Positions 10,168 to 11,095 of a stretch of 14,188 nucleotides of DNA are shown here, in pieces. The stretch lies in UHGV virus genome UHGV-1657534. The stretch is one strand, 5' to 3'. How positions within the stretch are numbered: position 1 is the first letter of the stretch; each line of letters opens with the position of its first letter. The stretch is from a virus. A program made the translations under genes and the position numbers. Under the pieces are notes generated by a model, which saw nothing but the letters and a program-made list of their open reading frames with translations, had not been told where the DNA came from and ran no database searches.

Positions 10168-10337
10168 CCTCTCACTCCATTATTTAACGAATAAAAAAGC
10201 TGCGGTGCCGGGTGCCTCCCGGTGTCCTTTGGCTGGTTATCCACCGTGGACGGGGAAACAAGGAGAAATGAATGGACTGATATAACCATTTCCCCGCGTG
10301 CGCTTAGCCGCATTCACCGCAACGGAAAGAGCATTCT

Positions 10338-10420
10338 TGGTGGACCTGTAGATTGGGATATGAACCCGTTACAGGAGAATGCTCTTACCTGTTACGTGCT
10401 CCGTTTCGTGGAGCTAACGG
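10338..10420 (-). repeat. degenerate tRNA-like element (tRNA 3'-half relic ending in CCACCA)
   Basis: The minus-strand reading ...CCTGTAACGGGTTCATATCCCAATCTACAGGTCCACCA has a T-loop-like GGGTTCATATCCC and a terminal CCA but lacks a proper T-stem and acceptor pairing. It shares a 25-bp block (GTAGATTGGGATATGA[A/C]CCCGTTAC) with 10629-10653 and CTCTTACCTGTT with the CCCTTACCTGTTGTG family. Confidence 0.45.
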
Positions 10421-10584
10421 CGGGTGATCGGGCCGCACCAGGCTGGACTTATTTCAGCGTTATGCTCATGCCAGAGAATCAAACTGTGATGGTCGGTGCT
10501 GAACTCCGACACAGGGTTGTAGCAAGCCCCGCAAAGCGCGCACTACTGTAGTTGCGGCACATCAGCCTGTGCATTCACCACAAT

Positions 10585-10666
10585 GTTGAGAACACTGGTT
10601 GTCACGCTGCAACGCAACATTTATTCGTAGATTGGGATATGACCCCGTTACGCCAGTGTTCTCAAC
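10585..10666. repeat. perfect 14-bp inverted repeat (GTTGAGAACACTGG / CCAGTGTTCTCAAC) enclosing a tRNA-like fragment
   Basis: Arms at 10585-10598 and 10653-10666 are exact reverse complements separated by 54 bp. The loop contains a second copy of the GTAGATTGGGATATGACCCCGTTAC block. It is preceded at 10560-10583 by CATCAGCCTGTGCATTCACCACAA, repeated at 10989-11012. Confidence 0.6.
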
Positions 10667-10811
10667 GTTGTAGTGCCGGTTACGGTTCCGGCCAGGCCTC
10701 TTCCTCAACGGGGTGTTCTCCATACGGACTACCGTTTATTGGTCGTTCCTGCGGTTTATGTTGTGAAGCCAGATGCTTATCTTCTGGTTGCTTCAAAGAG
10801 CTGCACTTCAT

Positions 10812-10879
10812 CACAACGGTAAGAGCACTCGATGCATTTAAGCCAAGCCCCATAAGGGAGAATGCCCTTACCTGTTGTG
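10812..10879. repeat. imperfect inverted repeat CACAACGGTAAG / CCCTTACCTGTTGTG (hairpin element, copy 1)
   Basis: Left arm 10812-10823, right arm 10865-10879. The same arm sequences recur at 11008-11023 / 11078-11094, and the right-arm motif alone at 11519-11533. Confidence 0.55.
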
Positions 10880-11007
10880 TTGTGATGACCGGTGCTGATC
10901 TCCGGCTTGCGGTTATTTCAGACTCTCACGGGCGTTTAATTGCCCCGCCGAACAGCTCTTTTCCGCAATAGCTGCAATGTCTTTCGCGCATCAGCCTGCG
11001 CATTCAT

Positions 11008-11094
11008 CACAACGGTAAGGGTACTTCGTAGGGATTCGAACCCTCTGCCAAGCTCGGCGATCTCCGACGTCGCAAAATACCCTTACCTGTTGTG
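11008..11094. repeat. imperfect inverted repeat CACAACGGTAAGGGTA / TACCCTTACCTGTTGTG abutting the tRNA-Thr 3' end (hairpin element, copy 2)
   Basis: About 16-bp arms flank 54 bp that contain a T-arm-like GTAGGGATTCGAACCCTC. The right arm ends 1 nt from the 3' end of tRNA-Thr (11096). Confidence 0.55.
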
Positions 11095-11095
11095 C

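What the first reader, a model, noticed from the sequence alone, without database searches (positions are those of the whole stretch)
10300..11095. Mosaic of degenerate tRNA-derived repeats and hairpin elements between the membrane-protein operon and tRNA-Thr
Four loci share blocks in a patchwork: GTAGATTGGGATATGA(A/C)CCCGTTAC occurs twice, CATCAGCCTG(T/C)GCATTCA(C/T)CACAA twice, TTCATCACAACGGTAAG twice, and CCCTTACCTGTTGTG three times with a fourth variant. Several are arranged as inverted repeats with 14-16 bp arms, and one abuts the 3' end of tRNA-Thr. Some copies keep T-loop-like sequence and a terminal CCA. The irregular spacing argues against CRISPR or type III antitoxin repeats. The likely explanation is relics of a formerly larger tRNA array, possibly still transcribed and processed, or recombination scars. 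The two plus-strand ORFs here (109 and 139 aa) owe their shared peptide repeats (VDWDM, ENALTC) to these DNA repeats and are probably not genes.
Basis: seen in the sequence. Interest (0 to 1): 0.55.

Follow-up and report, generated by a model that had tools for sequence, protein, structure and literature searches.

The report
Phage leader array of tRNA-shaped RNAs
The repeats are not decayed tRNA genes or protein genes. They are four to five copies of a conserved two-part folded RNA module, found in many phages, and Rfam holds only a distant relative.

Summary
In detail: every quoted repeat is present and far above chance. The window is a P1-like phage-plasmid, and the region lies on the minus strand inside the untranslated leader of the ban operon, next to tRNA-Asn and tRNA-Thr.

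Read on that strand, the repeats resolve into tandem modules. Each has a long imperfect hairpin (H) with conserved feet and exchangeable apical cargo. It abuts a structured element (E): a 7-9 bp closing helix, AAU, a small hairpin, a free centre, and a 5-bp hairpin stacked on the closing helix, with two loops that can pair (GCUGAU/AUCAGC).

E occurs in hundreds of phage and prophage loci across Proteobacteria, always co-oriented with neighbouring tRNAs, with strong compensatory covariation. It is found upstream of lambda-N-like genes, downstream of Q/tR', and inside tRNA arrays.

No Rfam 15 family reaches its threshold. The only relative is STnc100 (PasD by literature), matched weakly in both directions.

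The plus-strand ORFs, annotated Upl and Plp in P1, are artefacts.

"tRNA relics" is not supported as stated, though E has a tRNA-like layout and some H cargo is a perfect T-arm. Function is inferred: probably RNA processing and stabilising punctuation, possibly a source of small RNAs.

The parts
11447..11539 (-).
   Evidence: -48.4 kcal/mol, z = -5.4 on the minus strand, against -33.6 on the plus strand.
11174..11249 (-). tRNA-Asn (GTT); context, same transcript
   Evidence: 74.5 bits.
11096..11171 (-). tRNA-Thr (TGT); context. H_D starts 1 nt after its CCA
   Evidence: 72.9 bits.
11008..11094 (-). H_D: long hairpin whose apical cargo contains a perfect T-arm (AGGGUUCGAAUCCCU)
   Evidence: I7; -42.7 kcal/mol, z = -4.1; plus strand -36.3.
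10878..11013 (-). E1: full E element (closing helix P1 GUUGUGAUG/CAUCACAAC, P2 GCGCA-GGCUGA-UGCGC, P3 GCCGG-AGAUCAGCA-CCGGU). It is 98% identical to copies in lambdoid and T1-like phages
   Evidence: R1 77.4 bits; this copy was in the training set.. The MFE fold reproduces P1/P2/P3.
10812..10879 (-). H_C: long hairpin, cargo type beta (UCCCUUAUGGGGCUUGGCUUAAAUGCA)
   Evidence: -34.5, z = -4.7; plus strand -25.6. Homologues with the same cargo but different, still complementary arms.
10759..10817 (-). E2: degenerate, shortened E. It keeps the closing helix and the P3-like hairpin CCAGAAGAUAAGCAUCUGG and lacks P2
   Evidence: repeat D5, similar to the 3' part of E1; only 13 bits, E = 0.07, so marginal.
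10576..10675 (-). H_B: long hairpin (23-nt arms), cargo type alpha (GUAACGGGGUCAUAUCCCAAUCUAC) plus a second small hairpin
   Evidence: I1; -49.2, z = -5.4.
10482..10584 (-). E3: full E element
   Evidence: 75.9 bits; a near-identical P1 copy was in the training set. The MFE fold reproduces P1/P2/P3.
10398..10414 (-). Small hairpin GCUCC-ACGAAAC-GGAGC immediately 5' of H_A. The same hairpin precedes H in unrelated phages
   Evidence: Read directly (L006, L009, L013).
10318..10396 (-). H_A: long hairpin, cargo type alpha (CCUGUAACGGGUUCAUAUCCCAAUCUACAGG)
   Evidence: I2; -35.8, z = -4.7.
10198..10323 (-). E4: divergent E element, the STnc100-like copy. It ends ...CACCGCAGCUUUUUU, about 30 nt before the RBS and ATG of the 78-aa membrane ORF
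   Evidence: R1 28.3 bits, E = 9e-6; not in the training set. (STnc100 37.8 bits, below the gathering score of 47).
10222..10551 (+). Spurious ORF of 109 aa. It includes 'Upl' of P1 and RCS47
   Evidence: not called by PGAP.
10552..10971 (+). Spurious ORF of 139 aa, TTG start ('Plp')
11722..11741 (-). Intrinsic-terminator-like hairpin plus a U7 run, between Pban and the array, inside P1's 'dicF-like region' (context)

Best explanation
The repeats are the DNA imprint of a tandem array of structured RNA modules. They are encoded on the minus strand, in the sense of the C1-controlled ban operon transcript, which also carries tRNA-Asn, tRNA-Thr, the membrane/SPFH genes, tRNA-Met(CAU) and ban.

Each module has two parts.
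- H is a long, imperfect hairpin of about 20 bp. Its feet are conserved (CACAAC-A-GGUAAGRGC ... GCUCUUWCC-GUUGUG). Its apical cargo is exchangeable and comes in a few recurrent types: alpha, beta, or a T-arm.
- E abuts H. It has a closing helix P1 (7 well-supported bp, up to 9), then AAU, then a 4-5 bp hairpin P2 with loop AGGCUGAU, a free central region, and a 5-bp hairpin P3 with loop AGAUCAGCA. P3 runs directly into the 3' strand of P1. The two loops can pair (GCUGAU/AUCAGC).

This layout matches a tRNA cloverleaf (7 + 5 bp stack, D-like and T-like arms whose loops touch), but there is no detectable tRNA homology.

The order on the minus strand is: H0, tRNA-Asn, tRNA-Thr, H_D-E1, H_C-E2 (degenerate), H_B-E3, H_A-E4.

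Shown: the family, its fold, its strand and its genomic contexts.

Inferred mechanism: the modules act in cis as processing and stabilising 'punctuation' of a roughly 1.7-kb untranslated leader. Long H and extended P1 duplexes would be RNase III substrates. The tRNA-shaped E, sitting in tRNA-like slots, would be handled by tRNA-processing nucleases such as RNase P or RNase E. Cleavage would release the tRNAs and stable small RNAs, separate the downstream mRNAs from the leader, and keep untranslated RNA folded and so a poor Rho substrate.

My confidence in the identity is about 0.9. My confidence in this particular mechanism is about 0.35.
For: Locus and strand: the window matches P1-like phages, and P1 and RCS47 annotation places Pban, trnA, trnT, trnI and ban on the window's minus strand.

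Hairpins: all five fold better on the minus strand than on the plus strand:
- H_A: -35.8 vs -32.7
- H_B: -49.2 vs -45.5
- H_C: -34.5 vs -25.6
- H_D: -42.7 vs -36.3
- H0: -48.4 vs -33.6
Minus-strand z-scores range from -4.1 to -5.4.

BLAST found 169 phage records.

Covariation over 87 distinct sequences:
- 95.4% of cells are paired, against 88.9% in shuffles.
- 14 of 24 pairs have changes on both sides; 0/500 shuffles reach this.
- Slid controls give 29-51% paired.
- P1 pairs 3-9 are at least 92% paired.

The loop-loop pairing has compensatory variants: AGGCCGAU with AGAUCGGCA, and AGACUGAU with AAAUCAGUA.

Model R1 finds E1 and E3. It also finds E4, which was not in the training set (28.3 bits, E = 9e-6).

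Context:
- By my count of the table, all 69 tRNAs within 1.5 kb of an E element are on the same strand.
- E lies 18-31 nt upstream of lambda-N-like genes.
- In L029, E sits inside the same outer stem that forms lambda's N-leader hairpin.
- E lies downstream of Q/tR' next to a tRNA in Klebsiella phage 5.
- E lies 4-15 nt upstream of tRNAs in D6, L015 and L111.

H arms differ between phages yet stay complementary around identical cargo.
Against: - There is no expression or processing data for this region. The one P1 RNA-seq paper I found reports gene-level values only.
- E1 and E3 (or near-identical copies) were in the R1 training set, so only E4 is an independent hit. E2 is marginal.
- Part of the covariation set was collected with patterns that fixed P2 and P3, so those helices and the loop-loop pairing are under-tested.
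- RNase III or RNase P recognition is inferred from geometry and from the position of lambda's N-leader hairpin. Lambda itself has no E element.
- An intrinsic terminator sits between Pban and the array, so transcription of the array from Pban needs read-through or another promoter. The consensus promoter scan found none in 9000-12100.
- The near-invariant E core suggests something more specific than a nuclease site.
Confidence: 0.6

Rival explanations
1. Genes for trans-acting, Hfq-dependent small RNAs. Each E, with or without its H, would be the body of a prophage-type sRNA like STnc100 or PasD, excised from the long transcript and acting on host or phage mRNAs. The exposed CACAACA feet could also sponge GcvB, as AgvB does. 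This does not exclude cis processing and may be its product.
For: - E4 is STnc100-like (37.8 bits).
- R1 aligns end to end with the core of the genuine STnc100 of phage 933W (17.1 bits, E = 0.0027).
- STnc100 and PasD are prophage sRNAs; PasD was found by RIL-seq of Hfq-bound RNA.
- Some E copies are followed by a conserved tail and an intrinsic terminator, like an sRNA gene (L100, L104).
- CACAACA is the published GcvB R1 target consensus.
Against: - No copy reaches the STnc100 gathering score.
- Rfam AgvB gives no hit in the window.
- Most E copies have no terminator of their own and lie in 5' UTRs or between tRNAs.
- CACAACA is base-paired in the hairpin foot.
- The part that varies (the centre and the cargo) is not an obvious seed.
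Confidence: 0.2
2. Transcription-elongation control. The modules would be nut-, put- or rrn-boxA-like signals that make RNA polymerase resistant to Rho or to terminators across a long untranslated leader.
For: - E and H lie in leaders of antiterminated operons: PL, downstream of Q/tR', and the ban leader.
- Many H 3' arms contain boxA-like UGCUCUUU or CGCUCUUUUU (41 of 190).
- In lambdoid PL leaders, a boxA-like CGCUCUUUUUAC directly precedes an alpha-type H.
- A near-invariant core would fit contact with RNA polymerase.
Against: - The boxA-like motif is buried in a 20-bp stem and covaries with its partner strand.
- E also occurs in phages that have N and a normal nutL (L029).
- R1 finds nothing in the HK022 early-region stretches scanned (L350, L351; best E = 0.35).
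- The modules lie downstream of, not upstream of, the terminator next to Pban.
Confidence: 0.12
3. Relics of a formerly larger tRNA array: pseudogenes decaying without function.
For: - The region is adjacent to real tRNAs.
- H_D holds a perfect T-arm, and T-arms recur in 18 of 290 H units.
- Relatives carry extra tRNAs nearby.
- E has a cloverleaf-like layout.
- ARAGORN at a 70% threshold calls weak hits.
Against: - No tRNA is called at default or -ps settings, or by the Rfam tRNA model at E < 10.
- The low-threshold hits fall on both strands and barely exceed shuffles: 32 against 18 +/- 4.
- The elements are conserved with compensatory changes across hundreds of phages, many without tRNAs.
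- The E1 copy is 98% identical in unrelated phages.
Confidence: 0.06
4. DNA-level element: recombination sites or module boundaries, or a MITE/REP-like mobile repeat, with no RNA function.
For: - Modules are gained, lost and swapped exactly at the repeated arms. P1 lacks E1 + H_C; D6 has other combinations.
- Identical E1 in unrelated phages indicates horizontal exchange.
Against: - Orientation is always that of the local transcript and tRNAs: 69 of 69 by my count of the table.
- G-U pairs make the sense strand fold better than the antisense strand.
- T-arm cargo is seen only in the sense reading: 18 against 0.
- Copy number is about one per E. coli genome that has any: median 1, maximum 3. 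This is unlike REP, ERIC or MITE families.
Confidence: 0.05
5. The plus-strand ORFs Upl and Plp are real proteins, and the repeats are a by-product of internal protein repeats.
For: They are annotated as upl and plp ('putative lipoprotein') in P1 and RCS47.
Against: - No Pfam family.
- Plp has a TTG start, no signal peptide is visible in the translation, and it is cysteine-rich with an odd composition.
- The C-terminal third of Plp differs completely between P1 and this window. In P1 it runs antisense through H_D and tRNA-Thr (...RLTDSNR).
- PGAP calls no CDS here in RefSeq P1-like plasmids.
- The 8 variable sites show no third-position excess, though this test is underpowered.
Confidence: 0.02

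Closest known systems
STnc100 (Rfam RF02076) and, by literature, PasD: prophage-encoded sRNAs of lambdoid late regions
   Same: The core layout is the same: closing helix ..GGUG/CACC.., AAU, a small hairpin, a variable centre, then a CCGG...CCGG hairpin running directly into the closing helix. Window E4 scores 37.8 bits on STnc100. My E model aligns full-length to the genuine STnc100 of 933W. The habitat is the same: sense strand of antiterminated phage operons, near Q, tRNAs and lysis genes.
   Different: No copy here reaches the gathering score of 47. Typical E (E1, E3 and hundreds of others) is not detected by STnc100 at all. Typical E has its own near-invariant core and a GCUGAU/AUCAGC loop pairing, a preceding H hairpin, a much wider host range (beta- and alpha-proteobacteria), and occurs in tandem arrays and 5' UTRs rather than as a stand-alone terminated sRNA gene.
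Lambda N-leader stem-loop between nutL and the N ribosome-binding site, known to me from the literature as an RNase III processing site that tunes N translation
   Same: In N-encoding relatives (L029), E sits inside the same outer stem (GGCUUUGGGGUGUG.../...CACACCACCAAAGCU), at the same distance from the N start codon.
   Different: Lambda's own hairpin interior is unrelated and R1 does not hit it. RNase III cleavage of E- or H-containing stems has not been tested.
tRNA and tRNA-like punctuation: RNase P/Z processing of tRNAs embedded in polycistronic RNA; the unexplained stable RNAs in the phage T4 tRNA cluster (from my own knowledge)
   Same: The layout is a cloverleaf: a 7-bp closing helix stacked on a 5-bp hairpin with no intervening base, a 3-nt linker, a 4-5 bp hairpin with an 8-nt loop, and contact between the two loops. 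E occupies tRNA-like slots 1-15 nt from real tRNAs and is always co-oriented with them.
   Different: There is no sequence homology to tRNA, no anticodon arm, no conserved CCA, and a 9-nt rather than 7-nt loop. The loops pair by Watson-Crick bases. tRNA finders do not call it.
Phage T7 RNase III (R) sites: repeated irregular hairpins between genes of a long early transcript (from my own knowledge)
   Same: Repeated, related, imperfect long hairpins punctuate one long phage transcript. They are non-coding and have bulges.
   Different: There is no sequence relationship. H carries conserved feet and recurrent cargo, and is coupled to E.
nut (boxA + boxB) and HK022 put antiterminator RNAs
   Same: The position is the same: leaders of PL- and PR'-type operons. 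H 3' arms carry boxA-like strings, and small GAAA-type hairpins precede H.
   Different: The boxA-like string is paired. No N-like protein is known in P1. R1 finds nothing in the HK022 early-region stretches scanned.

Membership tests
tRNA gene or tRNA pseudogene | Recognised as a cloverleaf by tRNA finders (ARAGORN; Rfam RF00005) | tested here: not met
   Only tRNA-Asn, tRNA-Thr and tRNA-Met are found at default and -ps settings and by cmscan at E < 10. At a 70% threshold, hits fall on both strands and barely exceed shuffles.
tRNA gene or tRNA pseudogene | T-arm with a TΨC-type loop, an anticodon arm, and a 3' CCA or discriminator | tested here: not met
   A T-arm is present only in H_D and in about 6% of H units. 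No anticodon arm is called by the tRNA finders, and no conserved CCA follows P1 in the sequences read.
STnc100 (RF02076) | Reaches Rfam's gathering score of 47 bits | tested here: not met
   E4 scores 37.8 bits, matching model positions 31-147 of 206 only. Relatives score 33-40 bits. E1 and E3 give no hit.
STnc100 (RF02076) | Shared core secondary structure | tested here: met
   R1, built without any STnc100 sequence, aligns end to end with the 933W STnc100 core (17.1 bits, E = 0.0027). The STnc100 consensus structure line shows the same helix order.
STnc100 / PasD | Discrete Hfq-associated transcript | not testable with these tools
   No expression data. The literature gives this for STnc100 and PasD only.
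H-E module family (defined here, model R1) | P1-AAU-P2-centre-P3 fold with the conserved core, preceded by a long hairpin | tested here: met
   E1 77.4 bits and E3 75.9 bits (these, or near-identical copies, were in the training set). E4 28.3 bits is independent. E2 at 13 bits is marginal. Each copy is preceded by a hairpin that ends at the start of E.
REP / ERIC / MITE-type dispersed repeats | Many copies per host chromosome, in both orientations, independent of phage context | tested here: not met
   Median 1, maximum 3 places per E. coli genome that has any. The contexts examined are phage operons, and the element is always in the sense orientation.
CRISPR array / type III antitoxin (ToxI-like) array | Short near-identical repeats at a regular period | tested here: not met
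   Spacings are 261, 233 and 196 nt, copies are 66-96% alike, and the repeats are arms of hairpins.
nut site (boxA + boxB with an N-type protein) | Single-stranded boxA followed by a short boxB hairpin; a cognate N protein | tested here: inconclusive
   boxA-like strings are present but base-paired. No N-like gene is annotated in this window's P1 relatives. I did not search for N homologues.
HK022 put RNA | Similarity to putL or putR | tested here: not met
   R1 finds no hit better than E = 0.35 in the HK022 stretches scanned, which include nun, cI and cro.
AgvB / AsxR anti-sRNAs | Match to RF02702 or RF02703 | tested here: not met
   No hit in the window at E < 10, whereas 933W gives AsxR at 88 bits. 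Only the CACAACA heptamer is shared.
Protein-coding genes upl / plp | Conserved ORF, family match, plausible start and signal | tested here: not met
   No Pfam hit. TTG start. The C-terminus is replaced by a module indel and runs antisense into a tRNA in P1. Not called by PGAP.

The most novel reading that the evidence does not exclude
E, with its partner hairpin H, is an undescribed class of tRNA-shaped, pseudoknotted phage RNA. Its near-invariant core would engage a universally conserved host machine such as RNase P or other tRNA-processing enzymes, RNA polymerase or the ribosome. That would punctuate or insulate phage operons. The exchangeable H cargo (T-arm mimics, alpha and beta motifs) would serve as decoys or adaptors, for example against tRNA-targeting defences. 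STnc100 and PasD would then be one specialised offshoot of this larger family.
Probability: 0.25. Interest if true: 0.85.

Novelty: new variant of a known kind. Interest (0 to 1): 0.62.

Why it matters
- It removes two long-standing spurious genes, upl and plp, from the P1 map. It also flags similar opposite-strand "hypothetical proteins" in other phage records.
- It shows that the untranslated leader of the ban/tRNA operon is built from a toolkit of conserved RNA modules shared with lambdoid, T1-like and large Klebsiella phages and with prophages across Proteobacteria.
- It defines a testable fold for an RNA that is very widespread and almost invariant in its core, yet absent from Rfam 15 apart from the distant STnc100.
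- It gives STnc100 and PasD, sRNAs of unknown function in pathogenic E. coli, a structural and evolutionary context.
- If the tRNA-like layout reflects use of tRNA-processing enzymes, this would be a bacterial-virus counterpart of tRNA punctuation. It could also help explain how phage tRNA arrays and adjacent genes are matured.

Tried and rejected
- tRNA detection: ARAGORN at default, -ps, -ps70 and -ps60, and the Rfam tRNA model, find no pseudo-tRNAs. Low-threshold output is noise.
- Rfam at E <= 10 on the window, on relatives and on a typical E alone: only a sub-threshold STnc100 hit. The miRNA, tmRNA, TLS-PK1 and twister-sister hits are chance-level.
- AgvB or GcvB-sponge idea: only the CACAACA heptamer is shared; no model hit.
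- put RNA: no similarity in the HK022 stretches scanned.
- Lambda N leader: the outer stem is shared with E-bearing relatives, but lambda has no E.
- Hammerhead-like reading of CUGAUG...GAAA in E1: the GAAA and the A9 position are not conserved in the family (read).
- Pfam on the two ORFs: nothing.
- Codon-position test on P1-like relatives: only 8 variable sites, so uninformative.
- Literature: no paper holds the E consensus strings. The Lobocka 2004 P1 genome paper is not in the library. The P1vir RNA-seq preprint has no data on this region.
- MAFFT-based RNAalifold of H subfamilies under-counts covariation, because arms of different sequence are misaligned. The complementary arms were therefore read directly.
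- The sigma-70 consensus scan found no promoter in 9000-12100, not even the experimentally known Pban. It is therefore not informative.
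Full report
**Where the region lies.** The window is a P1-like phage-plasmid, 99% identical over this stretch to vB_EcoM-813R1 and RCS47. P1 and RCS47 annotation and the tRNA scan fix the orientation. The ban operon runs on the window's minus strand in this order:
- dmt (14168-11925)
- the C1-controlled promoter Pban, at about 11905-11935
- a stretch P1 annotates as "dicF-like", which contains an intrinsic-terminator-like hairpin at 11741-11722
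- tRNA-Asn (11249-11174) and tRNA-Thr (11171-11096)
- the region in question
- a 78-aa membrane ORF and an SPFH/Band-7 protein
- tRNA-Met(CAU), then ban

**Observation.** Every quoted block is present and far above chance. The repeat finder returns 12 direct-repeat families and inverted repeats with 13-23 nt arms. One more copy of CCCTTACCTGTTGTG lies at 11519, with an inverted partner at 11453-11467. Together they form a fifth hairpin upstream of tRNA-Asn. The feature therefore spans about 10198-11539.

**Strand and hairpins.** On the minus strand each repeat cluster folds into a long imperfect hairpin, H_A to H_D plus H0. Energies are -34.5 to -49.2 kcal/mol and z-scores -4.1 to -5.4. The plus-strand folds are all weaker, for example H_C -25.6 against -34.5 and H0 -33.6 against -48.4. 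That is the signature of G-U pairs in an RNA read from the minus strand. The feet are conserved (CACAAC-A-GGUAAGRGC / GCUCUUWCC-GUUGUG). The apical cargo differs between copies:
- alpha type (GUAACGGGKUCAUAUCCCAAUCUAC) in H_A and H_B
- beta type (UCCCUUAUGGGGCUUGGCUUAAAUGCA) in H_C
- a perfect T-arm (GGGUUCGAAUCCC) in H_D

**The second component, E.** Window 10877-11019 is 98% identical to segments of unrelated phages: mEp460 in its PL leader, and IME207 upstream of tRNA-Ser and tRNA-Arg. It also found 117 species genomes, from Enterobacterales to Pseudomonas, Halomonas, Burkholderiales and some alpha-proteobacteria. BLAST found 169 named phages, including Stx2 phages, HK633, Pseudomonas D3 and PMG1, T1-like phages and 160-kb Klebsiella phages.

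These loci share two conserved blocks around a free centre of 25-200 nt:
- 5' block: NNNNNN-GUG-AAU-GCGCAGGCUGAUGCGC
- 3' block: A(A/U)-GCCGG-AGAUCAGCA-CCGGC-CAC-NNNNNN

The flanking Ns covary strikingly. Examples are GUUGUGGUG/CACCACAAC, GUGUUGGUG/CACCAACA, GGGGUG/CACCCC, GAAGGUG/CGCCUUC, GAUGCAGUG/CACUGCAU and GGCGGUG/CACCGCC. P3 also covaries (GCCGG/CCGGC, GCUGG/CCAGC, GUCGG/CCGAC).

**Covariation test.** I built model R1 from 27 short copies. On 87 distinct further hits the named structure gave these results:
- 95.4% of cells are paired, against 88.9% in shuffles and 29-51% when the partner is slid.
- 14 of 24 pairs have changes on both sides; 0/500 shuffles reach this.

P1 pairs 3-9 are robust, and pairs 1-2 less so. 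The two hairpin loops are complementary (GCUGAU/AUCAGC). The rare loop variants are compensatory: AGGCCGAU occurs only with AGAUCGGCA, and AGACUGAU occurs with AAAUCAGUA. This part is under-tested, because the collection patterns fixed these sequences.

**Layout of E.** The layout has four features:
- a 7-bp closing helix continuous with a 5-bp hairpin
- a 3-nt linker
- a 4-5 bp hairpin with an 8-nt loop
- a central arm of any size, with contact between the two loops

This is the layout of a tRNA cloverleaf. That is an inference from geometry only.

**Copies in the window.** R1, with filters off, finds four copies:
- E1 at 11013-10878, 77 bits
- E3 at 10584-10482, 76 bits
- E4 at 10323-10198, 28.3 bits, E = 9e-6, not in the training set
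- E2 at about 10817-10759, degenerate, 13 bits

Each E starts where an H ends. The array therefore reads: H0, tRNA-Asn, tRNA-Thr, H_D-E1, H_C-E2, H_B-E3, H_A-E4, then the RBS of the first ORF.

In the wider family, the 110 nt upstream of E fold more stably than shuffles (mean -38.4 against -30.6 kcal/mol). The hairpin usually closes 0-1 nt from E.

H homologues keep the same cargo with different but complementary arms. For beta cargo, compare CACAACAGGUAAGGGCAUUC/GAGUGCUCUUACCGUUGUG (window), CACAACAGGGUAGGGCGCUC/GAGCGCCCUUUCCGUUGUG (Klebsiella phage 5) and CACAUCGAUAAACCCACU/AGUGGGGUUAUCGAUGUG (L021). RNAalifold counts compensatory pairs in both the alpha and beta sets despite imperfect alignment.

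**Context.**
- By my count of the table, all 69 tRNA genes within 1.5 kb of an E (26 of 125 places) are on the same strand as E.
- E lies 4-15 nt upstream of tRNAs in D6, L015 and L111.
- It lies downstream of Q and tR', next to tRNA-Thr, in Klebsiella phage 5.
- It lies in PL leaders of mEp460 and Stx2a phages.
- It lies 18-31 nt upstream of lambda-N-like genes, whose C-termini read ...GKSIPLI.
- In L029 the stem enclosing E (GGCUUUGGGGUGUG.../...CACACCACCAAAGCU) is the same outer stem as in lambda's N leader. From the literature I know this hairpin as an RNase III site. Lambda itself has no E.
- Other copies precede HNH-endonuclease, small-terminase-like and RdgC-like genes, by my reading of the translations, or are followed by a terminator.

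**Relation to known families.**
- Rfam 15 gives only a sub-threshold STnc100 hit on E4: 37.8 bits against a gathering score of 47, matching model positions 31-147. The equivalent copies in P1, D6 and Ro157c2YLVW score similarly.
- Typical E is not matched by anything.
- R1 aligns end to end with the core of the genuine STnc100 of 933W, which scores 207.7 bits on its own model. R1 scores 17.1 bits, E = 0.0027, on it. E and STnc100 therefore share an architecture, and E4 is intermediate between them.
- STnc100 lies 75 nt downstream of stx2B. A 2026 preprint groups it with PasD, a prophage sRNA found by RIL-seq of Hfq-bound RNA. Their functions are unknown.
- The HK022 early-region stretches scanned are not matched by R1.
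- AgvB shares only the CACAACA GcvB-target heptamer.
- No paper in the library contains the E consensus strings.

**The tRNA idea.** ARAGORN (default and -ps) and the Rfam tRNA model find only the real tRNAs. At a 70% threshold the calls fall on both strands and barely exceed shuffles. However, strict T-arms occur in 18 of 290 H units, with 0 in the antisense reading and about 0 in shuffles. One E (L097) even carries D-arm and T-arm fragments in its centre. In relatives, extra tRNAs sit between modules, not inside hairpins. The family has tRNA-like form and sometimes tRNA-derived cargo, but the copies here are conserved working parts, not decaying genes.

**The ORFs.**
- Neither has a Pfam match.
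- "Plp" starts with TTG, and no signal peptide is visible in the translation.
- Its C-terminal third differs completely between this window and P1, because P1 lacks one module (E1 + H_C). In P1 it reads antisense through H_D and tRNA-Thr (...RLTDSNR).
- PGAP calls no CDS here in RefSeq P1-like plasmids.
- The codon-position test had only 8 variable sites.

The shared peptides VDWDM and ENALTC are simply the repeats read in frame.

**How it probably works (inferred).** The leader from about 11900 to 10170 is untranslated and carries tRNAs. I think the modules are cis-acting processing and stabilising punctuation. Long H duplexes and extended P1 stems are RNase III-type substrates, as at the lambda N-leader position. 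The tRNA-shaped E, sitting at tRNA-like spacing, may be handled by RNase P, RNase E or other tRNA-processing enzymes. Cleavage would free the tRNAs and stable small RNAs. It would also detach downstream mRNAs from the leader and keep the RNA folded against Rho.

I rate the identity at about 0.9 and this mechanism at about 0.35. The main rivals are trans-acting Hfq sRNAs of the STnc100/PasD type (which may be the products of such processing) and elongation control of the nut, put or boxA kind.

Two things remain unexplained:
- The E core is nearly invariant across bacterial classes.
- The 6 nt before GUGAAU are complementary both to the foot of the preceding H and to the 3' strand of P1, and this triple covaries between phages.

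**Verdict.** What is there is a tandem array of a widespread, covarying phage RNA module with a tRNA-like layout. It is related only distantly to STnc100 and otherwise absent from Rfam 15.

Noticed in passing
window 11722-11741 (-), within about 11705-11810: A strong intrinsic-terminator-like hairpin (TGCCCATCTTCGGGTGGGCG followed by T7) lies about 170 nt downstream of Pban, inside the stretch P1 annotates as 'dicF-like region'. Pban may first produce a short DicF-like sRNA, with read-through needed to reach the tRNAs, the array and ban.
   Followed up: partly
window 9123-10167 (-): Where P1 has tciA/B/C, this phage-plasmid has a 78-aa membrane ORF plus a 275-aa SPFH/Band-7 protein (PF01145, E = 1e-30). 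One record labels the latter 'serine protease', another 'lipoprotein'. This is a cargo swap in the ban operon.
   Followed up: partly
window: feet of all five hairpins (for example 11533-11527, 11094-11088, 10879-10873): Every hairpin starts with CACAACA, the published GcvB R1 target consensus used by the prophage anti-sRNA AgvB. At 10890-10873 it is duplicated (CACAACACAACA). The motif is paired in the predicted fold, and no AgvB model hit was found.
   Followed up: partly
L005 (mEp460) 4980-5137: The lambdoid phage mEp460 carries an isrK hit (67 bits) followed by a C4-antisense-RNA hit (44 bits). This is a P1 immI-like antisense module in a lambdoid genome.
   Followed up: no
L005 2345-2460 (-), and L136, L164, L202, L335 and others: In lambdoid PL leaders, a boxA-like CGCUCUUUUUAC is followed directly by an alpha-type H hairpin (GACGGGCUCAUAACCCAAUC cargo). 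The hairpin ends 3 nt before GGAG...AUG of the first PL gene. This may be an unusual nutL or translational operator.
   Followed up: partly
L097 3949-4062: One E element carries a tRNA fragment in its variable centre: a D-arm GUAGCUCAGUUGGUAGAGC and a T-arm GCGGGUUCAAGUCCCGC, with no anticodon arm.
   Followed up: no
L001 (P1 NC_005856) 3159-3728; L005 2378-2931: Opposite-strand CDSs are annotated over E and H elements in reference records: P1 upl and plp, mEp460 gp36 and gp37, and 'hypothetical protein' rows. They are probably annotation artefacts that propagate.
   Followed up: partly
window 10807-11019 compared with P1 (L001) and D6 (L004): P1 and D6 lack exactly one module (E1 + H_C, the 196-bp register of repeat D1). 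In them the H_D 3' arm is fused to E2, consistent with unequal crossing-over between hairpin arms. E1 itself is 98% identical to lambdoid and T1-like phages, pointing to recent horizontal exchange of a single module.
   Followed up: yes
window 11250-11447 (-): Between H0 and tRNA-Asn there is a P3-like hairpin, GCCGGAGACGUACCCGGC, 4 nt before the tRNA. It may be the remnant of another E that R1 does not detect.
   Followed up: no
L349 (933W) 2278-2537: In 933W, STnc100 (sense to the late operon) is immediately followed by the convergent AsxR. The tRNA trio ileZ-argN-argO sits upstream of stx2. This is the same 'tRNAs plus structured RNAs in an antiterminated leader' theme as in the P1 ban leader.
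   Followed up: partly
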